Shown: piece after piece, positions 8,946-53,560 of the stretch | Layout: each line of letters opens with the position of its first letter | How positions within the stretch are numbered: the stretch's first letter is position 1 | Notes under the pieces: generated by a model | Seen by the model: the letters and a program-made list of their open reading frames with translations, nothing else | The model's database searches: none | Told to the model about the DNA's origin: nothing | Made by a program: the position numbers and the translations under genes | From: Methanomassiliicoccaceae archaeon | GTDB lineage: Archaea > Thermoplasmatota > Thermoplasmata > Methanomassiliicoccales > Methanomassiliicoccaceae | NCBI GenBank assembly: GCA_040776945.1 | Contig: JAXGZN010000001.1 | Span: 640,001-704,000 of the forward strand | Reading direction: 5' to 3' | Length of the DNA: 64,000 nt

Positions 8946-9134
8946 AGTGATGTCGCTCCACCGGGCTTGATACTCGATAGCAGGGCCCGGCTGGGTCGAA
9001 ATCCCCGATTTTATTATTAAACTGTTCGGTCGGCCCGCCCACTATCTGACGCCTTCCCGTTCGTTAAGGGCGGCGTATTTACTATATTCGTACAATGAAA
9101 TCGAAACGCATGTCTTTTTTTGGATTCTTGGACG

Positions 9135-10280: not shown

Positions 10281-10336
10281 CTCGAGGTCCAAAGCCGACC
10301 GTCATCGCTCCGTTCGAGGAATACATACGCGCGCGA

Positions 10337-12172: not shown

Positions 12173-12230
12173 GGATGGTCAATATTCAAATGGCAGTTCT
12201 GGTTAATTTTCAAGCGGCATTGACATTATC

Positions 12231-12776: not shown

Positions 12777-12790
12777 AAAAGGAGAGGGGG

Positions 12791-39226: not shown

Positions 39227-39237
39227 GCTCCGGAGGG

Positions 39238-40308
39238 ATGCCGATGAGACCGCGGGAGAGGATGGAGGCGGCGCTGCGAGGGGGAGCGCCGGACCGCGTC
39301 CCGGTGTTCCTGCGCGACCTCACCCTGGGCCTCGATGTCATCGGCGTCCCCACCCCGGAGGTGTGCTCTGGCAAGTTCAACGCCGAGCTGTCATCCAGGG
39401 CGGTGGTGGCAACGCAGCGAGCGCTCGGCCACGACGCGGTGGTCGGCAGCATCCAGTTCTGCGGGCTGGAGACCGAGATGCTGGGCGGCGAGCTGCATTT
39501 TCCAGAGCGGACGATACCGACGATCCTACACCCGCCGTTCGCTTCCCCCGAGGACGTGGACCGTGCCGAGCTGCCCGACCCCCTGAGGGACGAGCCGCTC
39601 TCGAACGTCGTGAAAGCGTACGAGCTCACCTCCTCGAGCGTCGGCGATGAAGTGGCCATTCTGGGCAACATCGAGGGTGCGGTGACCAAGGCGGGGATGC
39701 TCCGCGGGCTCGAGGCCCTGCTCATGGACCTGCTGACCGACCGCGGGTTGGCGGAGCGGACGATCGAGTTCGCCGCCCGCATGGGCGAGGATCTCGCTGA
39801 CGCGCTCGCATCACATGGTGTGAACAGCGCGCTGTTCGTCGCCGCCGCTTCCGACAACCCGGACATAATAGGCCCGGATGATTTTCGAAGGTACTCGCTT
39901 CCCGGGCTGAGGCGAGTGGTGGACGTCGTCAACGCTAACGGGCTGCCGACGGTGTTCCATCCCCATGGCATCTTCACCGAGCCGATGTTCTCGCCCCTGG
40001 TGTCGGAATCGATCGCGCAGGGCATCGCCGGCTTCCAGTTCGCCGAGCGCAACGACCTCGCGTTCGCGAAGCGGGAGTGGGGGAATGTGACATGCATACT
40101 GGGTGGAGTGGACGCGTTCACCACGCTGCTCCTCGGCCCGGAGGAGCGCATAATCAGGGAGACGGAGGACTGCCTTCGATCGTGCGGACCGTCTGGCTAT
40201 GTCATGATGTGCTCCTGCTCGCTGCACCGCGGCATGCCCCTTGGGAACGTCAAAGCGATGGTCGACGCCTGCCGCCGGTGGGACCCCGACCGCTTGAGAT
40301 CACCTTGA
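39238..40308 (+). CDS. Uroporphyrinogen decarboxylase/MtaA-CmuA superfamily protein
   Basis: RERM..AL.G..PDRVPV, RGLEALLMDL, LGGVD..LL.G, CSC..P..NV.AM. Confidence 0.85.
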   Translation: MPMRPRERMEAALRGGAPDRVPVFLRDLTLGLDVIGVPTPEVCSGKFNAELSSRAVVATQRALGHDAVVGSIQFCGLETEMLGGELHFPERTIPTILHPPFASPEDVDRAELPDPLRDEPLSNVVKAYELTSSSVGDEVAILGNIEGAVTKAGMLRGLEALLMDLLTDRGLAERTIEFAARMGEDLADALASHGVNSALFVAAASDNPDIIGPDDFRRYSLPGLRRVVDVVNANGLPTVFHPHGIFTEPMFSPLVSESIAQGIAGFQFAERNDLAFAKREWGNVTCILGGVDAFTTLLLGPEERIIRETEDCLRSCGPSGYVMMCSCSLHRGMPLGNVKAMVDACRRWDPDRLRSP

Positions 40309-40338
40309 GCTCGGAGCTCGCTTCTCCTCTCATTGGAC

Positions 40339-41718
40339 TCAGCAGAACCAATGGGCGCGAGGCTCGCAGGAGCGGTGGGCGACGATGGTCTTCTTCTTAG
40401 TGAACATCTGCAGCCTGCTCATCGACGAGGGGATGCCGCTCTGCTTCCACCCCTGGAAGTACTCGCCGCCGGGCAGCGTGCGGACGCACTCGTTGATCCA
40501 AACGTTGCCGACCTCGAGACGATTAGCGACGTCGAGGCCATCCTTAGGGTCTGATGTCCACACTGTCGCCCCCAGCCCGTACCTCGTGTTGTTGGCCAGG
40601 GCGATCGCTTCCTCATCATCGCGGACGGCGCGCACCGGGCACACCGGCCCGAAGGTCTCCTTTCGCACGAACTCGAGAGCGTCGTCCGTGTGCCGGAGCA
40701 CGGTCGGAGGGTAATAGAACCCAGGACCTTCAGGGATCTCGCCCCCGAACAGCAGCTCTGCGCCACGATCGACGGCATCCCGGACGACGCGGTGCACCTC
40801 ATCTCGGGCTTCCCCGCGTATCAGCGGGCCGACGTCCTCATCGAGGCTCAGGCGCCCGGCGATGCTGACCAGGCGACCCAGCAGCTCGTCGGTCACGGCC
40901 TCGTGCGCGTACACCCGCTTTATGCGCACGCACACCTGCCCCCCGCGGCTGAAGGTGCCGTAGGCGATGCCCCTGGCCGCCTGCTCGATGTCGGCGTCCT
41001 GGCGCACGATGCTGGCGTCGTTGCCCGAGAGCTCGAGGATCAGGGGCTTGATGCCGGCGTTCCTCGAGATGTCCAACCCGGTCTCGATTCCTCCGGTGAA
41101 GACGATGGCGTCGAGGTCGGAGGTGACCATCAGCTTCCCGATGTCCGCTCCCCCGACCACCGGGACGTAGAGGTCCTTGGGATAACCGGCCTCGCAGACC
41201 AGCTCGGCGATCTTCAGCCCGGACAGCGTGGACAGCTCCGACGGCTTGAACACCACGGCGTTGCCGGCGAGCAGCGCCGGAATGGCGGTGATCATCGTCT
41301 GCCAGAAGGGGAAGTTCCAAACTCCGATGTGGCCGATGACGCCGTGCGGGAGGAACGATATCGTCGCGTCGGTGGACGTCCATGATGAAGGAAGAGGATA
41401 CGGGCGGTCTCCCGTGGCCAGGTGCTCCTCGATGTAGTGATCGATCCCCGAGAGGGCGCTGTTGTACGCCCCAATCAGCGCCTTCTTTGGTATGCCGACC
41501 TCCTCGTGCATGAGGCCCACGACCTCATCGCGGCGGCGGAGGCAGACCGCTTCCAGGTCCTTGATCAGCGTGGCACGATCCTCCCGTGAGGTGCCGCGGT
41601 ACCACTCCTTCTGGCAACGCCTCGCCCGGGCCAGGGCGTCGCGGAGCTCGGCCGGTGTGGACGATGCGATCTCTCTTATTATCTGCCCCGTGCGGGGGTT
41701 GACGGAACGGACGACCAC
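40339..41718 (-). CDS. Aldehyde dehydrogenase family protein
   Basis: WNFP, KPSE, FTGG, LELSGND, GQVC, ETFGPV, GWKQSG. Confidence 0.93.
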   Translation of the reverse strand: MVVRSVNPRTGQIIREIASSTPAELRDALARARRCQKEWYRGTSREDRATLIKDLEAVCLRRRDEVVGLMHEEVGIPKKALIGAYNSALSGIDHYIEEHLATGDRPYPLPSSWTSTDATISFLPHGVIGHIGVWNFPFWQTMITAIPALLAGNAVVFKPSELSTLSGLKIAELVCEAGYPKDLYVPVVGGADIGKLMVTSDLDAIVFTGGIETGLDISRNAGIKPLILELSGNDASIVRQDADIEQAARGIAYGTFSRGGQVCVRIKRVYAHEAVTDELLGRLVSIAGRLSLDEDVGPLIRGEARDEVHRVVRDAVDRGAELLFGGEIPEGPGFYYPPTVLRHTDDALEFVRKETFGPVCPVRAVRDDEEAIALANNTRYGLGATVWTSDPKDGLDVANRLEVGNVWINECVRTLPGGEYFQGWKQSGIPSSMSRLQMFTKKKTIVAHRSCEPRAHWFC

Positions 41719-41929
41719 GAAGCTCTAATCCCGTGGCCGGTATTGATGCTTTGTCCGCCGGAGTCGAGCGATAGTCTCGAATCTATTCCGTTGAAGCTCT
41801 AGATCACAACTCCACGACCTCCGCGCGCTTGCGGTCGATGAACCGCTTCCGCGTGCCGTTGCCGGAGCCCTTGTGAACGACCTTGACGCCCCAGGCTTTC
41901 TGCATGGTCTCCACCGACGCCATGATCAA

Positions 41930-42110
41930 TTACGCTGGCCTGGGACCGGACTTCCGCCGCCAGCCTGGTAAGTATGGCCCCGAGGCCGGCCGCCCAGTCG
42001 ACCACTCCGTCCCAGATGTCCTCGATGATCGAGGTCAGCGGATCGAGGATAGTATCGCGGACGAGGTCGATGAGCCACGTCGCGAGCGAGGTCGTCTGCT
42101 TATTTACGAT
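41930..42110 (-). pseudogene. Degenerate orphan tip cassette 4
   Basis: SLATWLIDLVRDTILDPLTSIIEDIWDGVVDW.. aligns by eye with FVTWAIEFITDLVTDIFGPFIDDV.. of the other cassettes. Confidence 0.55.
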
Positions 42111-42131
42111 CTCGGTTCCGGCTTAAACGGA

Positions 42132-42566
42132 TCAGTAAGGCCGGTTCTTCCAGTCTCTTGGCAGCTCCGGCAGAGGACCGTGATACCTCTGGTACGCCGA
42201 TCTCATGGCCAACCCGATGTCGTAGGTCACGAGGATGGTCGATCTCTTTTTCTTCAGCCGTATTATACCTCTTCTCTTGTCCTTGCCGGTCACGGTGGTG
42301 TACTTGTTAGGAGAGACGTAGATCCACGCTATGTCTTCCCATCGGACGTCCTTTGGTTTAAAAAACGGTATTCGAGTTTCACCCCATCCTTGTCGATTCG
42401 CACTCGCAGCGGCCTTGAGACGTATTCCGTCTGTACAATAATAATTGGGACCATCAGGCTGCCGAAAAATCCGTATATCAGGAGAAGCGGGTTCGGCACT
42501 ATGATATATAATTGAAAAAATGACCATCGGGCTAAAAGCGCGGCATTCGTTACCTAAAGTAGCCAA
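42132..42566 (-). pseudogene. Frameshifted 2-TM + PH-like partner (immunity-like) gene
   Basis: Alternative frame gives LLLIYGFFGSLMVPIII..RPLRVRIDKDGVKLEYRF, joined at a T6 run to KPKDVRWEDI..MRSAYQRYHGPLP. Confidence 0.6.
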
Positions 42567-42586
42567 ACAAAAGGAAGGAATGCCGC

Positions 42587-43593
42587 ATGAAATACTCTAG
42601 TTAGATACATAAAGATTGCACGACCGCCTGCGCGGTCAGCGCAGGCGGGAAGGCCGTGATGAGCGCCGAGGTCACCACCGACGCTGCCGGCCTCAGCGAA
42701 CTGCACGCGCGAATGAACGGTTGCGAGTACAGCGTGATGATGGAATCGAGCACCTACTCATACGTCGCCTATCGATTCTTCGAACGACTGGGCATCGAGA
42801 CGCACGTGGTCCACGCTCGTAGCTTGAAGATGATCACTGACAGCGACAAGAAGACCGACCGCTCGGACGCGGAATGGATCGGCCGCTGCCTGCGGCTGTG
42901 GAAGCTCGGCGAGATCGAGCTTTCGATGTCTTACTTTCCGACGGAGGTCGAGGCGGAGCTCAAGGACCTCTGCCGGTACAAGGAAGAGCTATCCTCCAAG
43001 CTGGGCGACGACGTGCGACGAATAAGATCGCACATGAGCCGCAATTGCCTGGAACTACCTCCACAGTTCCAGAACCTGTCGACCAGGAAGTCCAGGAACT
43101 TCATCATCGTGACATACGCGAACGATTACACCTTGGTGAAGCGAGTGAGCGGCTACGCCTCGCTGCTCATCGAGTCAGAACAAGTAGTCAAGGAGATCGA
43201 GAGCAGGGGAGCGAACGACATGAACGTCGAACTGCTTGAATCTATACCGGGCATAGGACGGCAGACCGCCGTGCAGCTGATGTCGATGATAGTGGACGTG
43301 ACCAGGTTCAAAGATCCCGAGCGGCTTTGCGCATACTTCGGCATGGTGCCTCGAGTTCGCGATTCGGGAGGCAAGGAACATCATGGCCGCATGACGACGA
43401 GGACAACATGATGCGCTCGATCATGGAACGAGTTACTTCGAGCCATATCCACTTCTGCGATTCGACGATAACCGCATACTTCGAACGCAAAGCGAAGGAG
43501 ATGGGGAACAAGAAGGCGCTCACTTCGGCAGCGAGGAAAATGCTGGTCGTGATCCACACGGTTCTGATGAGGAAAACGCCGTTCACCGCCTGA
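42587..43593 (+). mobile_element. IS110-family transposase, frameshifted near both ends
   Basis: HKDCTTAC, MES, KKTDRSDA, LESIPGIG..TA, AYFGMVP...DSGG, AARKML..I..VL; frame change near 43400. Confidence 0.88.
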
Positions 43594-43918
43594 GCTACCT
43601 CAGGCGGTCTTACGTCCGATGTGCGCTCAACGAGATAAGAGGATAAGGACCGAGGACCATGCCGTCGACTGCTTTTGCGGGCCTTGAACGGATGCCGCCT
43701 TTAAAAATCATCGAGCTCAAAAGGTCCAGGCCTGGAATGTCATACTGCGGATCTTGCCGCCAAAGTAAATTAGGTTGTTCCTCGAACTCGGGAACACGCT
43801 CACGGACGAGCTTGCATAGCGTAAGCTATAAACAATGGGCATCACAATTCAGTAAAAGCCGCACTTTTAGCCTAAGTAAATCAGTGGATCGTGACAAAGG
43901 GCATCTTACGGGCCTCCC

Positions 43919-44188
43919 TTATGCGATATATATTAAGACCAGGGGATCACCGATCTGCACTTCCTTCGGGCGCCTTATAACCCCGAGGTAGGTGATTGGG
44001 ACGAGGAGCAATAGGGCAATAGCGGTGAAGAAAAAGATGCCTACCAATTGTGCCGCCCAGAAATCGGTGATGATGTACATTAACAGGCCGATGCAAAATA
44101 GGAAAATGGAGGAGAAAATCGCCAGGCCCATGAAATGGATGTCAGGGGGGTTTCTTATTTGTACCCTACTTTTCTCTGCGCCTTTCAT
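43919..44188 (-). pseudogene. Truncated 2-TM partner (immunity-like) gene
   Basis: Two TM helices then RRPKEVQIG, matching the layout of the neighbouring partner genes; premature stop. Confidence 0.6.
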
Positions 44189-44192
44189 GCAA

Positions 44193-44663
44193 TCATCTAC
44201 TCATAATAAGTTCATCGCCAGGCAAAGTTCTCATCATCATTTTTTCATATTTCGCCTTGATGTCTGTCGCTAGTCGACTAGGGATTATATACGGATACAA
44301 CCGACCAGAGGCATACAGATGGCGCTCGTCCTTAAGTCCGATCGTTGTCTGCCTTTTCATTGATAGCTTACGAATATCTGAAAAACGAATTAAGACATCT
44401 GGCCCGACTACGAACCTCATGCAAATTTGGTTCTCCATAACAATGACAACTTTAGGCTTCAGACGATATTCCCTATAAGATGAGACGATTATTGGAGGCA
44501 CCCCGATAAACAGGGAGAGAAATATTCCACCTATGCCCCATACGCCGGCTAAAAATAGGAAAATGCCGCCAATAAGGAAACAAAGTCCAATGAGAATAAT
44601 AAAATAAAACTCAAATGGTTTTCCATTGTCGATTGAGCAAAGGCGCTCTTCCGTCTCACTCAT
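44193..44663 (-). CDS. 2-TM + PH-like partner (immunity-like) protein of cassette 3
   Basis: ATG 2 nt after cassette stop; 2 TM, KPKVVIV, IRFSDIR, IKAKYEKMM. Confidence 0.75.
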   Translation of the reverse strand: MSETEERLCSIDNGKPFEFYFIILIGLCFLIGGIFLFLAGVWGIGGIFLSLFIGVPPIIVSSYREYRLKPKVVIVMENQICMRFVVGPDVLIRFSDIRKLSMKRQTTIGLKDERHLYASGRLYPYIIPSRLATDIKAKYEKMMMRTLPGDELIMSR

Positions 44664-44665
44664 TT

Positions 44666-45469
44666 TCAATCCCAATCACACCCCTCATATGACATCCATG
44701 CACCTATTCCACCGAATATGAGCGAGATGCCGCCCATATATGGGTCTACTACCGCTCCCGCAAGCGATATGATTAAGGATTCTATCGATATGAAGAAACC
44801 GATTATACCCATCGCAGCATCATTGGCGATGACCGAGTAGAGACCTAAAGCTAATGCGATTATGCCATCGGCTAGAATGATGCCGGACAAGATTTTTGTG
44901 GTAGAGACATAAAGCAGATCGGCAACGCCCAATATGCTAGTGAATACCCCCACGGCTGCAGCCCCCAAAGCCCAAGCGGTCTCGTCCGGAACCTGTTCGG
45001 TCCCGCCATTAGACGCGACATTGTAGGTCCAAGCTTGCCATGGCGCGACTCCATACATTGGAGTTCCCTGATCCCACTGAGCGGTAGACTGTATTCCTAA
45101 AGCATTATAAGCTATCACACCGACAATGCCCATCATCATGTAACCTACTAGGTTGGATGCTCCGAGCGTAATCACTTGGACCGATGTGCTCACGACCTTC
45201 GCAAGGACCGCTACAATCGAGAGAGCGGAATAGAACTCTCCATGAATGGCATCGGCAAGTTTGTTCGCAGTTCTTGGATCTATTGACCCAGATGTTTCCA
45301 GTTCTTCAACCACTAGGTGAGCCATGGACTGAACATGCTGGCAATATTGCATCCATTGCTCTCTAATCATATCGATGAGCGGGCTGAATACTTCTTCAAT
45401 AACGTTGTTAATGAACTCGATCGCCCACGTCACGAACGCCTGGAGAGCGTCGATGATGTCGTCGATCGC
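44666..45469 (-). pseudogene. Start-less orphan tip cassette 3 (multi-TM)
   Basis: Frame opens directly after the previous gene with AIDDIIDALQAFVTWAIEFI, then a divergent hydrophobic tip. Confidence 0.8.
45411..45444. repeat. 34-bp cassette-junction repeat, copy A
   Basis: ATGAACTCGATCGCCCACGTCACGAACGCCTGGA; identical at 46693-46726, 30/34 at 48409-48442, 31/34 inverted at 51206-51239. Confidence 0.95.
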
Positions 45470-45473
45470 TCAA

Positions 45474-45923
45474 CTACCGGCCTTGGTACTCCGGCGGATA
45501 GCGGCCCATGGCCTCGCGGTACTTGGCCCGGACGGCCTCGCTGATCTCGTAGCTGAGAGGATATGGACACATTTTCCCGTGGAGGAAGACGGAACCGCCC
45601 CTGGCCCACCGGCCCATGAACGTCGAGGAATTGCCGGGGTCCGAGTACACCGACTTGACCTGAGACCATCGAACCTCATTTTTCCTCGATAATGGAAATT
45701 GGAAGATGATGCCATCATCATTGATGTCGATGAGCTTTGGGAATCGGAGATAGTTCCTATCAAGGTTAGCTAAATAGAAGACAGATGGTAGGAGAATCGC
45801 GACTACCAGAGACAATAGGCCCCCTCCATCTAGATAGAAAGTCAGGCCAATGATGAGCAATATAGTGGCAATAATAAACAACCACGCCACATCCTTGGTC
45901 TGTCTCGGATTATCATATCTCAT
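45474..45923 (-). CDS. 2-TM + PH-like partner (immunity-like) protein of cassette 2
   Basis: ATG 4 nt after cassette stop; 2 TM, PKLIDINDDGI, VRWSQVKSVY, VRAKYREAMGRYP. Confidence 0.78.
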   Translation of the reverse strand: MRYDNPRQTKDVAWLFIIATILLIIGLTFYLDGGGLLSLVVAILLPSVFYLANLDRNYLRFPKLIDINDDGIIFQFPLSRKNEVRWSQVKSVYSDPGNSSTFMGRWARGGSVFLHGKMCPYPLSYEISEAVRAKYREAMGRYPPEYQGR

Positions 45924-45927
45924 GTCA

Positions 45928-46775
45928 TCACTCCAGCGACTTTATAGAGCAGTAGATACCCACGCCCCCGAACAACGCCGACATGCCGGCGACGATCCTC
46001 GCCGATGGCAACGGTGTCATCCAGTGGAGACTGCCGAGTACACCAGCGGCACCGCGGACACGAAGATCGCCACCACCGAGAGGTTGAAGCTCCCGACGGC
46101 CATGGCGAGCCATCCCAGAGCGGAGCCCACGATGCTCAGCGCCAGGTAGAACGCCTCCTTCATGACCACCGCTCCGCTCAGCACCAGACCTCCGGCGCCG
46201 ACGAAGGTCCCGAGGATGCTCATGCATCCCCCGAACGCGCCCCAGGCCGTTTGCTCTTTTGACGAGGTGAAGGTCCAATCGCATAGTGACTCCAACACTA
46301 CCCTGGTCCAGGTCCTCAAGGTTTCCAGCGCATCGTCGACCGGACCGCTCAGCACCCCATCGTCCCCATTGATATATGAGAACACCTCGCTCAGTATCAG
46401 AGCAACGACCATCGGAGCGACGAACGCCACGATCATCCCGTAGACGCTGGTCACCGGGGTCAGGGCAATGAGCAGGATGTCGATTACGACCGCTATTCCC
46501 ATCAGCACCGTGAACAGCTCTCCGGTGAGCGCGCTGCCGAGAGCGCGCTGAGAGCCATCGCTGACCGTGCCGGTGCCGGAGAAGTCCAGGGCAGCCCGGT
46601 CGACCGCTGCGTTCACTCCTTCCAGATAATCGAAGATGTAGCTCTTGACGTCATCGATGAACGGCCCGAATATGTCGGTCACCAGATCGGTTATGAACTC
46701 GATCGCCCACGTCACGAACGCCTGGAACGCGTCGGCGATCTCGTTAACAGCCTGGACGAAGCTCGACGCGAGATT
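45928..46775 (-). pseudogene. Orphan tip cassette 2 (multi-TM), frameshift near 46030
   Basis: VQAVNEIADAFQAFVTWAIEFI..; last helix IVAGMSALFGGVGIY lies in another frame and resembles ISLIFGGIGAW of cassette 3. Confidence 0.8.
46693..46726. repeat. 34-bp cassette-junction repeat, copy B
   Basis: Identical to 45411-45444. Confidence 0.95.
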
Positions 46776-47038
46776 ATGGGGCGCTGATCCATGAAGACCA
46801 TCCAGTCGCAGATAGTTCTTACAAGTCGTCGATCGCTTCTCCCTTTGCTTGCCCGATTGTGCCCAGGCTCTCATTGCCTTGCTCATCATTCATCGGTAGA
46901 CTCAATGGATATCGGCCCATGTGCTCTCGATACGCTTCCCTAACTACGTGGTGATGGACCGCTTCATCGGAGAGTACCTCGCCTGTGCGTTCAAGAGGAG
47001 GTAGCCGTCCTTGGTGTGCCATCGATGCTTAGTCTTCA

Positions 47039-47665
47039 TTAATATGATGGCTTGCCATCCATATACTTAGTCATCCTCCCTATTCCGATCCCCTTATCCA
47101 GGACTGGGACCATCCAGTGCTCTCTGATCGCTTCGGTCAGGGTGATGATCTGGCCGGGAGGCTTGGGGCCAGAACGATACTGCTTGCCCCTCACCGTTAT
47201 CACCACGAAACCGATGGGCGCATCCTCCCAGAGAAGATCGCTGCGATTATTCACGTTCTGGCGTAGCTTGCCCCTCACGACTTCAATCAAAGTGACCTCG
47301 TCCCGGGGCACGAAACCGTCGAAGCCGAGTAAACGTTGGTACAGGAACGTATACATCTCGATGCCGTTCGACCTTAACCTCGTCTTCGTTGATGCTAGTC
47401 TCATATCACGGAAGTGATACTCACTGACCCATAGGAGAAGGACGATCCCTGAGCCTCCGCCGATAGCGGCTACATACCTCACATCTTCTCCACCGTAGAT
47501 TACGAGGTTTCCCATTAAAATGAGAATCGAAATGACACCCATTCGTATTAACCAAACGAAGGACATCACTTGAAGATGGTTTTGCAAGGTGGAGTCCAAG
47601 ACAAAGGGGGGCAATTGCTCCTCAAACAGGACCTCACCATCTGAAATACGTTTAGTTTCACGCAT
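47039..47665 (-). CDS. 2-TM + PH-like partner (immunity-like) protein of the main gene
   Basis: ATG overlaps the end of the 1164-aa ORF; two TM helices then a beta-rich domain (LRSNGIEM, VPRDEVTLIEV). Confidence 0.75.
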   Translation of the reverse strand: MRETKRISDGEVLFEEQLPPFVLDSTLQNHLQVMSFVWLIRMGVISILILMGNLVIYGGEDVRYVAAIGGGSGIVLLLWVSEYHFRDMRLASTKTRLRSNGIEMYTFLYQRLLGFDGFVPRDEVTLIEVVRGKLRQNVNNRSDLLWEDAPIGFVVITVRGKQYRSGPKPPGQIITLTEAIREHWMVPVLDKGIGIGRMTKYMDGKPSY

Positions 47666-50600
47666 TCCTAGCCCTCTCAGCAGCCGTGTATAGACTGAAC
47701 GTCGAAACGCTGATATCAAATATGGCAAAGCCCAATAAGAATTTACCTACAGTCGGTAGCTTTACTGGTTTTACCAAATATATGGCGAATCCAAGTATGG
47801 ATAAAACAAATCCAATGCAACTCAGTTGCAAAGATTCCAGCGGATTCTCGACTGCCAACGACCATAGTGCTAAAGCGAAGCCGATGGTAGCAATGGCAAA
47901 TGATACGACTCCCAATGGATCGATGGCCATCAGCATCTGTATCTTTTCCGCCAAGAAATTGAAGATGGAGATGGAAAGCCCCAGGACTATTTCAATCTGG
48001 CTTGCTAGTTCGCTCCCGATGATGGTTTCCATCTGATTGCGCAGTTGATCGCCCCCGTTTATCAAACTCAATGGATTGAACCCTAATGCCGTTTGCAGAA
48101 CCGTGCTGACCATTAGCGTCAGCACCAAGGGGATGACTACCTCATTTATCAAGAATGAATATGGCATGAGCACGACGGACAGGATCATAATCGCCGCTGT
48201 TACCGCTGTAGCCACAATCATCAGGGCATCGATCATGTCAATGATGGGCGCTCCGATGGTAGCAGCCCCTTCATTCTCAGTCATACTCCCAGACTGTATG
48301 GATTGTGTTGCAACTGTAAGTAGCGATGAAATTACTCCGCAAGCTCCTGAACTCCCAATGCCGAGATTGCCTAAAACGCTCCCTACCGCCGTCTCTATTG
48401 TATCCGTGATGAAGTCGATCGCCCAGTCCACGAACGCCTGGAACGCGTTCACTATCTTCGTCACCGCCGTCTGTATGACCGATATGTAGGCGTTCGTGAT
48501 GGTGCTTATCAGCTTCACCCCGGCCTCGTACACCATCTCGGCGAGGTTGTAGAGCGTGGTGCCGATGGCGACGAGGCAGTCGAAGACGAACTCGAGGACC
48601 TCGCCGACGGTCAGATAGTCAGGCGCTTCACCTAGAGGTGACGACTGGATATTGTACGGTAACCTCGATTGGATATCGGCCGGCAGGTGGAGCAGGTACA
48701 GGTTGCTGGGCGAGATCACCACGCTGTTGCCGATCTGCGCGTTGGTCGGATCGTGCGTCAGCTTCCCTAGCAACTCTTCCGCCGCATAATTGCTCATCGT
48801 TTTCTCGAACACTGCAACGATGTGTCCTGAGCTGAACGCCTGCGAACCATCGGTCGAGTAGAACGATCCGCCGGAGAGCTCGCTCCCTGAGGGATTGGAG
48901 GTCAGCACATCGCTGAACTTTGATTCGAGCGCTAGGTAGCGAGGGACTATGATGGTGTTCACGCCGGGAGAGAAGTGCGCGCTAGATCCTTGGACAGTAA
49001 CGTACAGCATGTATACCTGCCCGTCGGCAGTATACCGGTAGTTGTTCGCGCCGATGACGTAGAGGTCGCTGTTCTCCTCGGTCGAATTGACGATGATGAG
49101 GTTGCTCTTCGGGGCGATCGCCGTCTCGACGAAGAATCCCACCTCACACTCGCTGTTCACGTTAAACCAGCCATCGCTTAGATCGCCATGTGAATAGTAC
49201 TCGGTATGTCCGTTGCTGTAGTAGAAAGTGAACGGATAATCGCAATGATTTGGGTCCGTGTCCTCCATGTCCAGCTTGATATCGTCGTATGCGGGAGGAT
49301 TGCCGGCGTTATCGGCCACCGCCATCATCACGAAACCCTTGCTCGTTCCGGTATCGTCCACCTGGATGTAATAGTTGAAGTTGAAGTACCGGTCCTCGTG
49401 CGTGTACACGTCGTACAGACGCTCGGTGGACAATGCGATCGTAGAATCGGTCACATCGTCGTAATAGGTAAGGACGAAGAAGATGTCGTGCACGTTACCC
49501 CAGTTTATGTCTTCCCACAGATTGAGGAAGTTGATGTTCACGTGCAGCATCATGTCCCCGAGATACTTGTCCACATTGTCTCGGAAGCCGTCCCCGTCGG
49601 TGTCCGCGCAGGTGGGGTCGAGAGGCTGGTTGCACGGCGTGATGCCCTCGATCTCGTCACGGTCCCAGATGCCGTCCCCGTCGGTATCATAGAGCACCGG
49701 GTTGGTGATCCACCCGTCCTCGCCGAAGCTCACCTCTTCGCCGTCCCAGATGCCGTCCCCGTCAGTATCTTTGACCAATGGGTTCGTTTTCCCCTCAAGC
49801 TGCAAGATGACGTACTGCACCTGGCCGTCCGATCCCGCGTAGTTCTGATCGGCGACCATGAACTCGAAGGTGCCTCCCTGGCGATAGAGCGAGATCGTAT
49901 AGTGCGGCGACAACGGTATGTAGGTCTCGAACACGTTCGCCCCGACATTCCATTGATCGTAGAGGCACAGGTTAGGCAAACCGGAGCCGACCTTGTACAT
50001 CCATACTTCGATGTCCTGGGCGCGGTCGGTGACGATGCCGACGTGCACCCTGACCGCGGTGATCTCCACCGACGCAGGAATGGAGGGGATGGTGATGGAC
50101 ATTATCGCACGGTCGCTCCACGAGCCGTTGGGCACTTTGTAGAACTTGTCGGTGGACCAGCTCTGCGACCATCGTTCCGCGCCGTCCATCAGGCCGTCGT
50201 CATCGGTGTCGGGGTCCCAAGGACTGGTGTGGCCGTAGATCGTTCCGAAGTATCCCTCGTCGGCGTCCTTGAGGCCGTCGGAGTCGGTATCGTCGGAGAA
50301 CGGATCGAGGTACCTATCGTTGGTCCGATCCGCTTCCATGCGATCGACCGCACCGTCGTTGTCGCTGTCGATCAGCAAGTGAAGCTCGGCGACCGACACC
50401 GAGGCGGTGCCGATCTTGAACAGGATGTTCAGCTGGGTGCCCCACATGTAATCGACGAAGGTCGAGGGATCGATGCGGAACGACGCGGTGGTCCACGAGG
50501 AACTCGCCTGAATGGTTTTCACGTCGACGAACGAAGTGCCGGTCCATTGCGATACCACGAACTGATTCTGGGAGCGATACACCAGCTCGACCTCGTGGAA

Positions 50601-51152
50601 GTTGCCGGATACAGGACCGTTCACGAAGAACAACGCGCTGCCATCGGTCGTGCTGCGGTAGGTGCGGCCTCCGTCCGAGAGGACCGAGGACCAGTGGCCG
50701 TTGTTGTAGATGTTGATGCCAGGGTTGCGGTACCGGCCGCTGTCGTCGTACACCCCGCCGACCACGGTGTACAGGTCGCACGGGCGCATGGTCACCGAAG
50801 TAACGTTAGAGATGGATGACACGAACCTCAGCCGAATGTTGTATCCCGGAGCGGAAGCGTCCGCGTCGTAGTACACGCCGCGCTGCAGGGAGATCACGGC
50901 CGAGTTGCCCCAGCGGTACAGGTTGCCGATGGTCACGTACCCATCGAAGGACAGCTGTTGTACCTCGATGTACTCCGCCGCATCGCTGTACGTGATCTCC
51001 AGCGTGAACACCATCGTCTGCACCGGGACGTTGACGAGCATCGTCGCCCCGGCGGTGCCGTTGGCCACCGTCCCGTCGAACGTCCATCCGGACTCGAACC
51101 CCACGCCGGGATTGTGGTACGAGGCCGGGGTGAAGCTGATAAGCACCATCAC
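47658..51152 (-). CDS. Large surface-type protein (5'-truncated): beta domains, DTDxDG Ca-binding repeats, P-proprotein-like domain, amphipathic linker, multi-TM variable tip
   Basis: DSDNDG, DTDSDG, DTDDDG and 3x DTDGDG; VRVHVGI..DIEVW..FMVADQ..DGQV; AT-richer hydrophobic last ~245 aa. Confidence 0.85.
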   Translation of the reverse strand: MMVLISFTPASYHNPGVGFESGWTFDGTVANGTAGATMLVNVPVQTMVFTLEITYSDAAEYIEVQQLSFDGYVTIGNLYRWGNSAVISLQRGVYYDADASAPGYNIRLRFVSSISNVTSVTMRPCDLYTVVGGVYDDSGRYRNPGINIYNNGHWSSVLSDGGRTYRSTTDGSALFFVNGPVSGNFHEVELVYRSQNQFVVSQWTGTSFVDVKTIQASSSWTTASFRIDPSTFVDYMWGTQLNILFKIGTASVSVAELHLLIDSDNDGAVDRMEADRTNDRYLDPFSDDTDSDGLKDADEGYFGTIYGHTSPWDPDTDDDGLMDGAERWSQSWSTDKFYKVPNGSWSDRAIMSITIPSIPASVEITAVRVHVGIVTDRAQDIEVWMYKVGSGLPNLCLYDQWNVGANVFETYIPLSPHYTISLYRQGGTFEFMVADQNYAGSDGQVQYVILQLEGKTNPLVKDTDGDGIWDGEEVSFGEDGWITNPVLYDTDGDGIWDRDEIEGITPCNQPLDPTCADTDGDGFRDNVDKYLGDMMLHVNINFLNLWEDINWGNVHDIFFVLTYYDDVTDSTIALSTERLYDVYTHEDRYFNFNYYIQVDDTGTSKGFVMMAVADNAGNPPAYDDIKLDMEDTDPNHCDYPFTFYYSNGHTEYYSHGDLSDGWFNVNSECEVGFFVETAIAPKSNLIIVNSTEENSDLYVIGANNYRYTADGQVYMLYVTVQGSSAHFSPGVNTIIVPRYLALESKFSDVLTSNPSGSELSGGSFYSTDGSQAFSSGHIVAVFEKTMSNYAAEELLGKLTHDPTNAQIGNSVVISPSNLYLLHLPADIQSRLPYNIQSSPLGEAPDYLTVGEVLEFVFDCLVAIGTTLYNLAEMVYEAGVKLISTITNAYISVIQTAVTKIVNAFQAFVDWAIDFITDTIETAVGSVLGNLGIGSSGACGVISSLLTVATQSIQSGSMTENEGAATIGAPIIDMIDALMIVATAVTAAIMILSVVLMPYSFLINEVVIPLVLTLMVSTVLQTALGFNPLSLINGGDQLRNQMETIIGSELASQIEIVLGLSISIFNFLAEKIQMLMAIDPLGVVSFAIATIGFALALWSLAVENPLESLQLSCIGFVLSILGFAIYLVKPVKLPTVGKFLLGFAIFDISVSTFSLYTAAERARNA
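48429..48531. repeat. 103-bp perfect inverted repeat, inner arm
   Basis: Reverse complement equals 51117-51219 base for base. Confidence 0.95.
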
Positions 51153-51219
51153 GAACGCCTACATATCGGTCATACAGACGGCGGTGACGAAGATAGTGAA
51201 CGCGTTCCAGGCGTTCGTG
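51117..51219. repeat. 103-bp perfect inverted repeat, outer arm; continues on + as a short alternative tip to 51282
   Basis: Encodes YEAGVKLISTITNAYISVIQTAVTKIVNAFQAFV on +, then TWAVEFFEGTIFKLHADFHR*. Confidence 0.95.
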
Positions 51220-51355
51220 ACGTGGGCGGTGGAGTTCTTCGAGGGGACCATTTTTAAGCTTCATGCCGACTTTCATCGATGAATTCAGAGTCCAGACATT
51301 TGGTGAAAGGGCGAGCAAATCATTTTAGCCGTCCTGGGTCTTCCTAAGGATGTCC

Positions 51356-52501
51356 ATGAAGCGCACTCCATTGTACGACGCCCATGTCGAATTAGGCGCC
51401 CGGATGGTCGAGTTCGGCGGCTGGGAGATGCCGGTCCAGTACACCAGTATCCTGGAGGAGCACCGAGCGGTCAGGGAGCGAGCGGGAATGTTCGACGTCT
51501 CCCACATGGGCGACCTGATCATCCGCGGGGCGGGAGCGGAGGACTCGCTTCGAGAGCTCCTTACCAACGACATCAAGGACCTCGCTCTGAGTAAGGGCAT
51601 CTACGCCCACATGCTGAACGAGGAAGGGAAGATCATGGACGACACCTTCACCTTCCGCGCAGGTTCTGACACCTACCTCCTGGTCCCGAACGCCTCGCAT
51701 GCCCAGCAGATCCATGAGTGGGTCCGCGACCACGTTCGAGGAGCGATCGTCACCAATGTCTCGGAGCGCGTGGCGGCCATCGCCCTGCAGGGGCCGAGAG
51801 CGCAGGAGGTGCTGCAGCGCCTCACCGACAAGGACCTGAAGAGCGTGAAGAGGCTATACAGCGATATCGTCAACCTCAAGGTCTCGTCGCCGAGCGGACC
51901 CGAGCGCTTCCTTCCCGATGTTCTAAACTTCCCCGCGCCCCTGCCCGGCACCACGCAGAGCTACGTCACCCGCACTGGCTACACCGGCGAGGATGGGTTC
52001 GAGATCCTCGTGGAGCGCGGAGCGGCGGTCGCGGTGTGGAACGCGCTGCTCGCCGCGGGCAAGGACCTCGGGCTCATGCCCTGCGGACTAGGGGCCAGGG
52101 ACCTCCTCCGCCTGGAGATGGGGTACCTGCTCTCGGGCACCGACTTCGACGGCACACAGAGCACCCTGGAGACCGGGCCTGCTTGGGCGATCAAGTGGGA
52201 CCATGCGTTCATCGGCCGGGAAGCGATGATGAAGCAGAAGGAGCGCGGCGGATATCGCAAGCTTGTTGGGCTCGAGCTCCAGAACAGGGGCATCCCCCGG
52301 CATGGCTATCCCGTCGTCGTCGGCAACCGTGAGGTCGGCATGGTGACCTCCGGTACTCTGTCACCCATCTTGCAGAAGGGCATTGCCCTCGCGTACGTGG
52401 ACGCGGAGCTCACCAAGGAGAACACCGAGCTCGCGGTGAGGATCAGGGACAATTATGTCCGTGCCATCGTGGTCAAACCGCCGTTCATCAGGAAGGGGTG
52501 A
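51356..52501 (+). CDS. gcvT: Glycine cleavage system aminomethyltransferase T
   Basis: KRTPLY, FGGWEMPVQY, FDVSHMG, TGYTGEDGFE, GLGARD.LRLEMG. Confidence 0.95.
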   Translation: MKRTPLYDAHVELGARMVEFGGWEMPVQYTSILEEHRAVRERAGMFDVSHMGDLIIRGAGAEDSLRELLTNDIKDLALSKGIYAHMLNEEGKIMDDTFTFRAGSDTYLLVPNASHAQQIHEWVRDHVRGAIVTNVSERVAAIALQGPRAQEVLQRLTDKDLKSVKRLYSDIVNLKVSSPSGPERFLPDVLNFPAPLPGTTQSYVTRTGYTGEDGFEILVERGAAVAVWNALLAAGKDLGLMPCGLGARDLLRLEMGYLLSGTDFDGTQSTLETGPAWAIKWDHAFIGREAMMKQKERGGYRKLVGLELQNRGIPRHGYPVVVGNREVGMVTSGTLSPILQKGIALAYVDAELTKENTELAVRIRDNYVRAIVVKPPFIRKG

Positions 52502-52504
52502 GGG

Positions 52505-53560
52505 ATGAGGACCAAGGTCGTGGACACGCTGCAGGACCTGCTGGCCATGGACAGCGACCTGCACGCGGACATGAGCACCATCCTCAGGTTCACCCGCCGC
52601 AGACTGGAGTCCGCAGGAATGCGCGTCCGCCAGGTCGGGCCTCAGCGCTACCCGGCGCTCATCGCCACCTACGGCAAGAACGGCATGCTGTTCTCCGGGC
52701 ACCTGGACACGGTGCCGGTGGGCGACAACTGGACGATGTTCCAGGGGGAGGAGGACGGCAACCGCATCTACGGCCGCGGCACCTGCGACATGAAGGGCGC
52801 GTGCGCCGCCATGATCGAGGCCGCCGGCGAACTGGTGGACGACGACGTCCCGTTCAGCATCTGCCTCACCACCGACGAGGAGGAGCAGATGGAAGGCGTA
52901 GACGCCATCGTGAAGGAGGACATCGTGCGCAAGGCCAAGGGCGTCCTGATCATGGAGCCGACCGAGCTGGCGCCGGCGTACCGCGAGAAGGGTGTCTTCC
53001 GCTTCCGCCTGACGACACGAGGGCGCGCCGCGCACGCCAGCCAGCCGTGGCTGGGAGACGACGCGATACTCAAGATGCACTATTGCCTCGATCGGCTTCT
53101 CGACCTGGCGGAGATGTCCTCTCAGCGCTCAACGGGCATGACCGTCTGCTTCTCTACCATCCGGGGGGGCAACAAGAACAACGTGGTCTCGGACCACTGC
53201 AGCGTGGAGGTCGACATCCGGCATCCGTCCACGCAGACCGCCAATGACATCGAGGACATCATCGCGAACCGCCTGCGAGGCGAGGTGTACGAGATGGACA
53301 TCGAGTACACCCTGGGGGCGTTCGAGTCCGACCCGGATTCGGAGATCAGCCGGGAGCTGTCTAACTTTTTGGGCACCGATCCCATCGTCGTGCCCTACGC
53401 CACCGAGGCGCCGAAGTACGCGGCGGTGAACCCGCATGTGTACATCTGCGGGCCCGGCGACCCCCGCCTGGCGCACACCGTCGACGAGTACGTCGAGATA
53501 CAAGAGCTGGAGGAGGCGCACGACATGATCGTGCACCTGGCCAAGTACGTTCAGGGGTAG
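52505..53560 (+). CDS. M20-family metallo-hydrolase (ArgE/DapE-like)
   Basis: SGHLDTVP, GRGTCDMKG, DEE, EPT, AH..DEY. Confidence 0.9.
   Translation: MRTKVVDTLQDLLAMDSDLHADMSTILRFTRRRLESAGMRVRQVGPQRYPALIATYGKNGMLFSGHLDTVPVGDNWTMFQGEEDGNRIYGRGTCDMKGACAAMIEAAGELVDDDVPFSICLTTDEEEQMEGVDAIVKEDIVRKAKGVLIMEPTELAPAYREKGVFRFRLTTRGRAAHASQPWLGDDAILKMHYCLDRLLDLAEMSSQRSTGMTVCFSTIRGGNKNNVVSDHCSVEVDIRHPSTQTANDIEDIIANRLRGEVYEMDIEYTLGAFESDPDSEISRELSNFLGTDPIVVPYATEAPKYAAVNPHVYICGPGDPRLAHTVDEYVEIQELEEAHDMIVHLAKYVQG

What the first reader, a model, noticed from the sequence alone, without database searches (positions are those of the whole stretch)
41930..51282. Polymorphic tip-cassette array: Ca-binding surface protein, exchangeable multi-TM C-termini and paired 2-TM partner genes
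Seen: one long ORF (47658-51152) has extracellular-type beta domains, six DxDxDG repeats, an amphipathic linker ending AFQAFVDWAIDFI, and an AT-richer ~245-aa hydrophobic tip. Downstream on the same strand are start-less modules (45928-46775, 44666-45469, remnant 41930-42110) that begin at this linker and then diverge. The first two carry an identical 34-bp DNA repeat. The main gene and both intact modules are each followed within a few nt by a small 2-TM gene. Established: this is the layout of orphan CT/immunity cassettes in CdiA, Rhs and MafB polymorphic toxin loci, where recombination at a conserved junction swaps tips. Inference: an archaeal contact-dependent, membrane-active toxin/immunity or kin-recognition system whose trunk and junction motif I do not recognise from described families. 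Toxicity is not demonstrated.
Basis: partly seen in the sequence, partly recalled or inferred. Interest (0 to 1): 0.92.

Follow-up and report, generated by a model that had tools for sequence, protein, structure and literature searches.

The report
Decayed archaeal tip-cassette and immunity locus
This Methanomassiliicoccus locus is a worn-down copy of an apparently undescribed archaeal system in which giant surface fibre proteins swap a water-repelling tail together with a small partner membrane protein, laid out like bacterial toxin and immunity cassettes.

Summary
A conserved junction (…DAFxAFVxWAIEF) is followed by a variable, hydrophobic, roughly 250-aa all-helical tip. In 25 of 27 cases a small 2-TM gene sits directly downstream. 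Cassettes lacking a start codon stand in arrays.

Three corrections:
- The 1164-aa "main gene" is cut at its 5' end. Homologues are 1761–3622 aa with signal peptides; this genome has no N-terminal part and no second copy.
- An inverted copy of the linker, with a 103-nt perfect core, abuts the ORF start.
- Module 1 carries a 1-nt frameshift. Further partner fragments and an IS110 element lie in the array.

Tips are a single homologous family, not assorted toxin domains. Partners fall into two families (A has a predicted PH-like fold), and these match the two tip clades exactly. One cassette is 96% identical to one in another species, against 86% for the neighbouring housekeeping gene. One tip-less relative keeps 11 partner copies in partner-only clusters.

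Best reading (0.55): a membrane-active polymorphic toxin/immunity system, here reduced to an immunity island. Toxicity, binding and delivery are not shown. No paper describing it was found, but one key paper could not be read.

The parts
51117..51282 (+). Inverted copy of the linker (arm R, 51117-51251) followed by a 10-codon tail and a stop. The plus strand reads YEAGVKL...AFQAFVTWAVEF, then FEGTIFKLHADFHR and the stop.
   Evidence: Inverted repeat I1, 135 nt at 91%. The perfectly identical core is 51117-51219 = 48429-48531 and ends at the AFQAFV codons. Matches the tip profile at E 3.9e-18.
48532..51152 (-). Trunk cut at its 5' end. It has beta-rich domains and six D-x-D-x-D-G calcium-type repeats. 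The start codon lies inside the inverted linker copy, and there is no signal peptide.
   Evidence: ORF. Residue ~10 aligns to residue ~795 of the 1761-aa G010 protein, and inside open frames of 1393-3622 aa in others. The N-terminal 780 aa of G010 were not found in the window's own genome. The repeats match NCBIfam CglD at E 1.2e-11, far below that family's cut-off.
48397..48531 (-). Linker helix (arm L) ending in the junction AFQAFVDWA (48420-48446).
47661..48419 (-). Tip 1: 253 aa after the junction, about 10 predicted helices, acidic and poor in K/R, in the tip clade that pairs with family-B partners.
   Evidence: AF2 model of linker plus tip, pLDDT 75.6 and pTM 0.62. Hydropathy. Tree.
47042..47665 (-). 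Partner 1, family B: 208 aa, 2 TM plus a C-terminal domain. Its ATG overlaps the end of tip 1.
   Evidence: Alignment A3. In two RNA libraries the contig with the highest depth covers this gene.
46819..47022 (-). Possible C-terminal remnant of a family-A partner (…REAYREHMGRYP…).
   Evidence: Seen by eye in the translation. The family-A profile did not detect it at E <= 0.001.
45928..46889 (-). Orphan module 1: junction at 46693-46752 and a tip with a 1-nt frameshift near 46020-46045. The tail continues in another frame to 45928.
   Evidence: Window 45431-46744 is 96% identical in DNA to G002 (L035), from junction to junction.
45474..45923 (-). Partner 2, family A: 149 aa, intact.
   Evidence: E 1.6e-53.
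44666..45469 (-). Orphan module 2: starts directly after a stop codon. Junction at 45411-45470, intact 251-aa tip.
   Evidence: E 1.1e-66.
44193..44663 (-). Partner 3, family A: 156 aa, intact. Predicted as a TM hairpin plus a PH-like beta sandwich with a C-terminal helix.
   Evidence: AF2 pLDDT 81.2 and pTM 0.70. The top Foldseek hits are nearly all PH domains, at weak E-values of 0.02-0.1.
43919..44188 (-). Truncated N-terminal fragment of a family-A partner (89 aa, 2 TM).
   Evidence: Profile match at E 3.7e-10 with a stop inside.
42656..43593 (+). IS110-family transposase gene, in two overlapping ORFs, inserted in the array.
   Evidence: Pfam DEDD_Tnp_IS110 at 2.7e-12 and Transposase_20 at 3e-18. 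DNA contigs break at about 42567-42596 and 43801-43843.
42132..42566 (-). Frameshifted family-A partner, related to the partner in G007 (L017).
   Evidence: 86% nt to L017; two profile matches in different frames.
41930..42110 (-). Tip remnant (…ATWLIDLVRDTILDPL…) of the tip type found in G002 (L036, L037).
   Evidence: 88% nt; E 1.8e-9.
41804..41929 (-). C-terminal remnant of a family-B partner. Relative to G002, a deletion of about 1.15 kb has fused it to the tip remnant.
   Evidence: Translation compared with A3. Collinear blastn matches to L036, L037 and L027.

Best explanation
The window holds a decayed locus of a polymorphic C-terminal cassette system. The system is found in Methanomassiliicoccales and, sparsely, in other members of the same phylum.

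Intact form, as seen in relatives. A giant surface fibre protein carries an N-terminal signal peptide, fn3-type repeats and calcium-type repeats. It ends in a conserved hydrophobic helix and a long helix that closes with the junction …DAFxAFVxWAIEF. After the junction comes a highly variable tip of about 250 aa that is acidic, poor in K/R, hydrophobic and all-helical. The next gene encodes a cognate small membrane protein: a 2-TM hairpin plus a PH-like domain in family A, or family B. Cassettes of tip plus partner, without a start codon, follow in arrays. Recombination at the junction DNA exchanges tip and partner together.

Inferred mechanism. The tip is a membrane-inserting, probably depolarising, toxin. 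It is carried on the fibre of these wall-less cells and reaches a neighbour's membrane on contact. The partner is the membrane-embedded immunity protein that neutralises only its own tip type.

In this window the weapon is broken. The trunk has lost its 5' end and signal peptide, one tip is frameshifted and one survives only as a remnant. Three partner genes are intact, and at least the first appears to be transcribed from its own promoter. The locus therefore probably now serves only as an immunity island.

Shown: the architecture, the junction breakpoints, sharing of cassettes between species, the match between tip clades and partner families, partner-only clusters, and the truncation. Inferred: toxicity, tip-partner binding, delivery, and the promoter.
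For: Layout:
- The junction motif is conserved, tips diverge after it, and tip length is a uniform ~245-275 aa.
- 25 of 27 tips have a small membrane gene directly downstream. One of the other two is a tip-partner fusion ORF.

Extent of the family:
- 585 cluster representatives match at E <= 0.001 (271 at 1e-10, 97 at 1e-30).
- 121 of the 125 matches that reach the profile's end stop within 20 aa of the protein's C-terminus. Of the 150 listed, 105 are 520 aa or shorter and 22 are over 1200 aa. 13 of those 22 have a signal-peptide-like N-terminus.
- Full-length relatives carry fn3 and Pur_ac_phosph_N repeats.

Recombination at the junction:
- Window 45431-46744 is 96% identical in DNA to G002, running exactly from one junction to the next. 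The adjacent aldehyde dehydrogenase gene is only 86% identical.
- Two G008 contigs end exactly at …AFNAFVQWAI(E).

Cognate pairing:
- The tip tree splits on one branch (support 100/99) into the 19 tips paired with family A and the 6 paired with family B. None of 500 label shuffles did as well.
- Close tip pairs have close partners: 94/94, 64/58 and 49/42% identity. Mantel r = 0.65, reached by 0 of 2000 permutations.

Immunity-like behaviour:
- The family-A profile hits 22 of 61 genomes and the tip profile 18 of 61. Six genomes have partners only.
- One of these is G003 (96% complete), with 11 partner copies and no tip. Its partner-only clusters run A-A, A-A-B and B+A+A.
- Fused double partners occur in G011 and G015.

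Folds:
- Partner A is predicted as a TM hairpin plus a PH-like domain.
- The tip is predicted as a 10-helix hydrophobic module with about 10 K/R against about 27 D/E.

Truncation: (no other copy in a 99.8%-complete genome).

Expression hint: in two RNA libraries from two studies, the contig over partner 1 has depth 24.6 and 28.5, against 2.9-6.3 for the other listed contigs. These contigs stop at 47700 and 47760, while DNA contigs run on to 48458. TATA-like motifs lie about 20 nt upstream of each stop.

Cell envelope: a cultured member of the order has no cell wall or S-layer and bears 300-nm surface fibrils (PMC10673518, passages read).
Against: - No toxic activity, binding or delivery has been shown.
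- The tip matches no Pfam, NCBIfam or PDB sequence family and no solved fold above the background expected for helical bundles.
- All tips are homologous (25 of 25 by iterative search from two of three queries). This is unlike classical polymorphic toxins, whose tips have assorted folds.
- A conserved hydrophobic helix and 4-6 TM-like segments suggest the tip may simply insert into the producer's own membrane. How such a domain would reach another cell is unknown.
- No release peptidase or known pre-toxin motif was found.
- The rank correlation of tip and partner identities is weak (Spearman 0.09, p = 0.11). The Mantel signal rests on a few close pairs, and most pairs sit at about 25% identity.
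- dN/dS for the one close pair is 0.34 (tip) and 0.68 (partner), from few changes. That gives no sign of positive selection.
- Family-A partners scattered across many loci could equally mean a broader membrane-protein family with other roles.
- Contig depths are a poor measure of expression, and RNA libraries can hold DNA.
Confidence: 0.55

Rival explanations
1. A non-lethal self or kin recognition system. Tip and partner would be identity determinants that must match between touching cells, in the manner of Proteus IdsD/IdsE or myxobacterial TraA. They would govern adhesion, membrane exchange or fusion between wall-less cells rather than killing.
For: A single homologous tip family with many allelic types, and cognate small membrane partners. 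Tip types are shared across species and scattered on the tree. The trunk is adhesin-like. The IdsD/IdsE and TraA comparison is recalled, not drawn from a call.
Against: Partner-only clusters in a genome without any tip (11 copies in G003) make sense for protection but less for an identity tag, which needs both halves. Orphan arrays and decayed weapon genes beside intact partner genes are typical of toxin/immunity loci. No test here separates the two readings.
Confidence: 0.2
2. Variation of a membrane anchor with its assembly factor. The tip would be only the membrane root of the fibre, and the partner a chaperone or insertion helper made alongside it, as phage Mu swaps tail-fibre ends together with their assembly genes. 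Cassettes would vary to escape viruses or other agents that recognise the root.
For: The tip has TM-like segments and follows a conserved hydrophobic helix. The trunk is flanked by an inverted repeat with a 103-nt perfect core. One RNA-library contig follows the path expected of the flipped form. The Mu comparison is recalled.
Against: A membrane-buried anchor is an unlikely target for diversifying pressure. Genomes without tips keep many partners. No invertase gene is present; the only recombinase is an IS110 transposase. The 103-nt repeat is longer than the assembler's 31-nt word, so the flipped contig may be only an assembly path. In the flipped form the trunk would end in a 17-residue tail and would still lack a signal peptide.
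Confidence: 0.12
3. A suicide or defence module acting within the cell. The tip would be a latent pore held closed by the partner and opened when the fibre is engaged, for instance by a virus. This resembles a holin/antiholin pair or abortive infection.
For: A hydrophobic helical module paired with a small membrane protein, and the rapid variation typical of conflict systems.
Against: This reading does not predict orphan cassettes without start codons or partner-only clusters. No defence genes were noticed beside the loci examined, but the defence-system library (PADLOC) was not searched.
Confidence: 0.08

Closest known systems
Polymorphic toxin systems of bacteria (CdiA/CdiI, Rhs, MafB; Zhang et al. 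2012, PMC3482391, passages read)
   Same: A large exported stalk protein, a conserved junction after which C-termini diverge, a small cognate gene directly downstream, orphan tip-plus-partner cassettes without start codons, clusters of partner genes alone, and cassettes exchanged between species. That paper lists a 2-TM immunity family (Imm-CdiI) and a 2-helix pore-type tip (Tox-WTIP).
   Different: - No FHA, RHS, VENN, LXG or other known trafficking or pre-toxin domain was found.
- The junction motif is different.
- All tips belong to one homologous hydrophobic family of uniform length, not to assorted enzyme folds.
- The partners are PH-like membrane proteins.
- The host is a wall-less archaeon.
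- Toxicity has not been shown.
Pore-forming colicins with membrane immunity proteins, and hydrophobic tips such as CdiA-CT of E. coli EC93 (recalled)
   Same: One helical, membrane-inserting fold with many specificity types. Each type is neutralised by its own small integral-membrane immunity protein, and those proteins fall into two families.
   Different: There is no sequence match, and no fold match above background. The tip has more hydrophobic segments than the single hairpin of colicins. There are no translocation or receptor domains of the colicin type.
VARTIG module of Thermococcales (Makarova et al. 2021, PMC8416519; abstract, introduction and one results section read)
   Same: An archaeal locus organised like a polymorphic toxin system: a large secreted protein with a recombining, hypervariable C-terminus and variable downstream genes. 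Its function is unknown, and conflict or self/non-self roles have been proposed.
   Different: In VARTIG the variable part is an extracellular Ig domain and the downstream genes are varied. Here the variable part is a hydrophobic helical module with a fixed kind of 2-TM partner. The authors report finding no closely similar module outside Thermococcales.
Membrane-anchored bacterial PH-domain proteins (Pfam bPH and PH_40 families, NCBIfam STM3941 family)
   Same: Partner A is predicted as a TM hairpin plus a PH-like sandwich with a C-terminal helix. Partner 3 matches STM3941_fam weakly, at E 8.8e-4 and 19.2 bits. For partner B, the nearest named protein-language-model clusters carry bPH_7 or PH_40, at scores of 0.92-0.93.
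   Different: No Pfam family matches at E <= 0.01. The NCBIfam score is under that family's cut-off of 40 bits. The atlas hits are leads only.

Membership tests
Polymorphic toxin system (general definition, Zhang et al. 2012) | Large N-terminal secreted or stalk region with a secretion signal | tested here: not met
   Met in relatives: open frames of 1761-3622 aa with signal-peptide-like N-termini. Not met by the window's copy: the ORF starts inside the inverted linker, has no signal peptide, and the N-terminal part is not found in the genome.
Polymorphic toxin system (general definition, Zhang et al. 2012) | Conserved junction followed by divergent C-terminal modules, with orphan cassettes downstream | tested here: met
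   Window modules lie at 46017-46889 and 44666-45469, with a remnant at 41930-42110.
Polymorphic toxin system (general definition, Zhang et al. 2012) | Cognate immunity gene directly downstream of each tip | tested here: inconclusive
   The position is met (25 of 27) and the tip clades match the partner families. The protective function was not tested. The complex prediction gave no answer.
Polymorphic toxin system (general definition, Zhang et al. 2012) | C-terminal module is a toxin (known toxin domain or shown toxicity) | tested here: inconclusive
   No Pfam or NCBIfam family and no PDB sequence or fold match above background. Toxicity cannot be tested with these tools.
CdiA/CdiB two-partner secretion | FHA-type repeats, VENN pre-toxin motif, CdiB transporter | tested here: not met
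   Pfam and NCBIfam scans of the window protein and of three full-length relatives show none of these. The junction motif is DAFxAFVxWAIEF.
Rhs / YD-repeat toxins | RHS/YD repeats and the PxxxxDPxGL boundary | tested here: not met
   No RHS hit.
Colicin-type pore-forming domain | Ten-helix globular bundle with one buried hydrophobic hairpin; Pfam Colicin domain | tested here: inconclusive
   No Pfam hit. No such chain is among the listed Foldseek or VIA rows. All scores are in the background range for helical bundles.
PH-domain fold (partner family A) | Seven-stranded sandwich capped by a C-terminal helix | tested here: met
   The AF2 model has six strands and a C-terminal helix after the TM hairpin, at pLDDT 81. 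Most of the top 50 Foldseek rows are PH domains, but at weak E-values of 0.02-0.12. This is likeness of fold only, with no sequence-family membership.
Site-specific inversion switch (shufflon, or Mu G-segment type) | Inverted repeats plus a dedicated invertase, with alternative complete C-termini on both sides | tested here: not met
   An inverted repeat is present. No invertase gene was seen among the ORFs of 39000-54000. The right-hand arm is followed by only a 10-codon tail.

The most novel reading that the evidence does not exclude
Wall-less methanogenic archaea may carry their own class of contact-dependent weapon, unrelated to the bacterial ones. A giant calcium-stiffened fibre protein would have a C-terminal hydrophobic module that is handed from membrane to membrane and opens a pore in neighbours lacking the matching PH-domain membrane immunity protein. 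Cassette arrays and partner-only immunity islands would record an arms race among strains in digesters and guts.
Probability: 0.4. Interest if true: 0.85.

Novelty: new variant of a known kind. Interest (0 to 1): 0.74.

Why it matters
Polymorphic toxin systems have been predicted in archaea but, according to the 2021 paper read here, not characterised by experiment (PMC8416519). In the 2012 survey the few archaeal cases looked borrowed from bacteria.

This family has its own trunk, junction, tip and partner families. It counts 585 cluster representatives, and it lives in methanogens of digesters and animal guts that have no cell wall. If the tips are toxins, the family offers several things:
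- a tractable case of archaeon-against-archaeon antagonism;
- a possible new membrane-active protein fold;
- a role for membrane-anchored PH domains as immunity proteins;
- a natural marker of strain competition among methane producers.

The window itself shows the end state of such a system: the weapon is lost and the shields are kept.

Tried and rejected
- Complex prediction of window tip 2 with partner 3, using alignments A6 and A2: no answer, score 0.00. This counts neither for nor against binding.
- Fold searches with the tip model. Foldseek against the PDB gave nothing at E <= 0.001. The VIA wide search gave a best Z of 9.4 over 86 residues, within the background for helical bundles.
- Protein-atlas look-up of the tip: best score 0.82, below the useful range. 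The picornavirus 2B and TrbL rows are not evidence.
- Word-based homologue search with partner 2 found only its own cluster. With the tip region it found two proteins, one of them annotated 'hypothetical protein' in a Methanomassiliicoccus MAG.
- phmmer of the whole ORF against PDB sequences: 0 hits.
- Inversion. One RNA-library contig (X16) joins 48752-48429 on the minus strand to 51220-51867 on the plus strand, the path expected of the flipped form. One contig (X15) joins 45410 to 46693. Both joints lie in exact repeats, of 103 and 34 nt, that are longer than the 31-nt word of the assembly. I therefore do not count them as evidence of rearrangement. The DNA contigs of X5 and X12 simply break at these repeats.
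- I considered that the missing N-terminal part might lie elsewhere after a large inversion. It was not found with the G010 N-terminal query, and neither the trunk search nor the tip-profile search found any match in the genome outside this locus.
- dN/dS on the one close cassette pair was uninformative.
- Literature. No paper in the held library has both 'Methanomassiliicocc…' and 'polymorphic toxin'. Searches for STM3941 and for bacterial PH-domain immunity proteins led nowhere. The 2019 mBio survey of archaeal polymorphic toxins (Makarova et al.) is not held, so I cannot exclude that it or its supplements list this family. Supplements were not consulted.

Full report
**What is in the window.** All coding parts of the locus lie on the minus strand. 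In order they are:
- a 1164-aa ORF (47658-51152);
- a 208-aa 2-TM gene whose ATG (47665) overlaps the end of that ORF;
- module 1 (46017-46889);
- a 149-aa 2-TM gene (45474-45923);
- module 2 (44666-45469), which begins directly after a stop codon with 'AIDDIIDALQAFVTWAIEF';
- a 156-aa 2-TM gene (44193-44663);
- an 89-aa 2-TM fragment (43919-44188);
- an IS110-family transposase gene on the plus strand (Pfam);
- a frameshifted small gene (42132-42566);
- a tip remnant (41930-42110);
- a 41-codon remnant of another small gene (41804-41929).

There are six D-x-D-x-D-G motifs, an exact 34-nt repeat at 45411-45444 and 46693-46726, and a tip that is richer in AT (47.6% GC against 58.5% for the trunk and about 64-65% for the flanks).

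First, the long ORF is cut at its 5' end.
- In relatives of the same order, its residue ~10 aligns deep inside open frames of 1393-3622 aa.
- The closest relative, G010, is 75% identical. Its protein has 1761 residues and starts with a signal-peptide-like segment. The window's residue 10 corresponds to its residue ~795.
- In the window the frame is closed by a stop just upstream of the GTG start, and the N-terminus is not a signal peptide.
- The window's genome has 2 contigs and is 99.8% complete. It holds no other trunk, linker or tip. It also has no match to the G010 N-terminal 780 residues.

Second, an inverted copy of the linker (51117-51251, plus strand) sits directly at the ORF's 5' end (inverted repeat I1).
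- Its first 103 nt are identical to 48429-48531.
- The identity stops exactly at the codons for AFQAFV, where tips diverge.
- G010 has a degenerate inverted linker remnant about 240 nt upstream of its start codon, with the same outer boundary.
- So the inverted copy is probably old. In the window's lineage the promoter and about 2.3 kb of coding sequence seem to have been deleted next to it, and the two arms later made identical by gene conversion. That last step is inference.

Third, module 1 has a 1-nt frameshift near 46020-46045 relative to its intact counterpart in G002.

**The family.** I searched 60 relatives with the ORF and fetched 20 loci. An iterative search with the linker then found the same block in all of them. 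The block is a hydrophobic helix, then a long helix, then the junction (I)VDAFxAFVxWAIEF. Sequences are no longer conserved beyond the junction (alignment A1).
- The part after the junction is of uniform size, about 245-275 aa in most.
- It carries 4-6 hydrophobic segments.
- Iterative searches from two of three window tips recovered 25 of 25 tips. The search from tip 1 recovered only itself.
- The tips are therefore one very divergent family, with a median global identity of 25%, and not a collection of unrelated toxin domains.
- 25 of 27 tips are followed at once by a small membrane gene. Of the two exceptions, one is a tip-partner fusion ORF.

A profile of A1 was run against 1.84 billion cluster representatives.
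- It found 585 proteins at E <= 0.001, 271 at 1e-10 and 97 at 1e-30.
- Among the 150 listed, 121 of the 125 matches that reach the end of the profile stop within 20 residues of the protein's C-terminus.
- 105 of the 150 are 520 aa or shorter, which is orphan-sized. 22 exceed 1200 aa, and 13 of those 22 begin with a signal-peptide-like segment.
- Full-length relatives carry long runs of fn3 and Pur_ac_phosph_N repeats.
- Named records are Methanomassiliicoccus and Methanomassiliicoccaceae MAGs, and one source annotates its protein as hypothetical.
- In a sample of the phylum, 15 of 301 genomes matched at E <= 1e-5.

**Partners.** The small genes fall into two families.
- Family A accounts for 19 of 25. 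These are about 150 aa and include the window's partners 2 and 3.
- Family B accounts for 6 of 25. These are about 210 aa and include partner 1.
- An AF2 model of partner 3 (pLDDT 81.2, pTM 0.70) shows a TM hairpin followed by a six-stranded sandwich and a C-terminal helix. Its best Foldseek matches are almost all PH domains, at weak E-values of 0.02-0.12.
- Family B may be of the same kind. hhalign between the two families gives 78% probability over 117 columns, and the atlas gives leads to bPH_7 and PH_40 clusters. This is not settled.
- No Pfam family matches either partner family. Partner 3 has a sub-threshold match to the NCBIfam STM3941 family.

**Evidence that tip and partner travel and evolve together.**
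- A maximum-likelihood tree of the 25 tips splits on one branch (support 100/99) into exactly the tips paired with A and those paired with B. None of 500 label shuffles did as well.
- Close tip pairs have close partners (94/94, 64/58, 49/42% identity). Mantel r is 0.65, reached by 0 of 2000 permutations. The rank correlation is only 0.09 (p = 0.11), because most pairs are at the noise floor.
- Tips from one genome are scattered over the tree, and near-identical types occur in different genera and families.
- Window 45431-46744 runs from the junction through tip and partner to the next junction. It is 96% identical in DNA to G002. The aldehyde dehydrogenase gene next to the array, which lies in the same position in both genomes, is 86% identical.
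- Two G008 contigs end exactly in the junction.
- Together these show that the junction is a recombination boundary and that cassettes move between species.

**Evidence bearing on function.**
- The family-A profile matches 22 of 61 genomes and the tip profile 18 of 61. Sixteen genomes have both, two have only small tip fragments, and six have partners only.
- G003 is of the same genus, 96% complete, and has no tip. It has 11 family-A matches, and its loci include partner-only clusters A-A, A-A-B and B+A+A. Fused double partners occur in G011 and G015.
- Two different partner families clustering together without tips is what immunity genes of polymorphic toxin systems do (polyimmunity loci, PMC3482391). 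It is hard to explain if partners were only assembly helpers.
- The tip model (pLDDT 75.6, pTM 0.62) is about ten helices. One hairpin is very hydrophobic and several other helices are moderately hydrophobic.
- Across 116 sequences the module has about 10 K/R against about 27 D/E, with no positively charged loops. That is unusual for an ordinary multi-pass membrane protein. I read it, cautiously, as compatible with a domain made to enter membranes from outside.
- No solved fold matches above helical-bundle background.
- A cultured member of the order has no cell wall or S-layer and bears 300-nm fibrils (PMC10673518). So membrane-to-membrane contact is plausible.

**Reads.** The locus is present at 97-99% of sampled words in DNA metagenomes of six studies of digesters and sludge, some of which may be its source. 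Contigs of two RNA libraries from two studies lie on it with 0-1 mismatches.
- In both libraries the contig with by far the highest depth (24.6 and 28.5, against 2.9-6.3 for the other listed contigs) covers partner 1.
- Those contigs stop at 47700 and 47760, which is 35-95 nt upstream of its ATG. DNA contigs run on to 48458.
- TATA-like motifs lie at 47724-47717 and 47784-47776.
- This is a weak hint that partner 1 has its own promoter inside the end of the tip gene and is expressed more than the truncated trunk. Contig depths and RNA libraries allow no more than that.
- The two alternative joins seen in RNA-library contigs fall inside exact repeats longer than the assembler's word. They are not counted as evidence.

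**Mechanism and verdict.** I commit, at 0.55, to a membrane-active polymorphic toxin/immunity system that in this genome has decayed to an immunity island.
- In the intact form, the signal peptide exports the fibre.
- The C-terminal module is kept harmless in the producer by its partner.
- In a neighbour lacking that partner, the module damages the membrane.
- Recombination at the junction swaps tip and immunity together.
- Partner genes are retained after the weapon is lost.

Only the genetic architecture, the recombination boundary, the tip-partner correspondence, the partner-only clusters and the truncation are shown. Toxicity, binding and delivery are inferred. The rival readings are non-lethal kin recognition (0.20), anchor variation with an assembly factor (0.12) and a suicide pore acting within the cell (0.08).

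The system works like a polymorphic toxin system. It fails membership of CdiA, Rhs and the other named classes, because none of their defining domains or motifs is present.

I found no description of it. No paper in the held library holds both 'Methanomassiliicocc…' and 'polymorphic toxin'. The 2021 VARTIG paper reports no closely similar module outside Thermococcales. However, the 2019 mBio survey of archaeal systems could not be read. I therefore rate it a new variant of a known kind, of high interest as a family. The window's own copy is a relic.

Noticed in passing
window 42567-43843: An IS110-family element sits inside the array. Its transposase is split into two overlapping ORFs (42656-43411 and 43327-43593). 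DNA contigs of two metagenomes break at both of its ends, as expected for a multi-copy element.
   Followed up: partly
L023 (G010:C23) 7841-13126 and 7527-7629: The closest full-length homologue has an intact signal peptide and N-terminal part. Its tip stops about 70 residues after the junction, and no partner gene follows. A degenerate inverted linker remnant lies about 240 nt upstream of its start codon.
   Followed up: partly
L050-L052 (G003:C21, C3, C8): A genome of the same genus has no detectable tip but holds clusters made only of partner genes (A-A, A-A-B, B+A+A).
   Followed up: partly
L031 (G030:C3) 1335-3053; L056 (G011:C32) 5647-6675; L055 (G015:C15) 4356-5927: Fusion ORFs occur: one tip joined in frame to a family-A partner, and two proteins each with two family-A partner units in tandem.
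   Followed up: no
L028 (G009:C1, single-contig genome) 9001-12054: A complete genome of the same genus also holds only orphan-sized modules: 549 and 310 aa plus a partner, with no long trunk. Loci that have lost the trunk's 5' end may therefore be common.
   Followed up: no
window 51397-52218: In the two DNA metagenomes laid, depth rises to 22-49 over part of the glycine-cleavage T-protein gene, with many short skipping joints. These are probably contigs of other organisms recruited by a conserved gene.
   Followed up: no
window 38270-40308: Upstream neighbours look, from their translations alone, like a substrate-binding protein and a uroporphyrinogen-decarboxylase-type methyltransferase. 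That would fit a methylotrophic methanogen. No tool was run on them.
   Followed up: no
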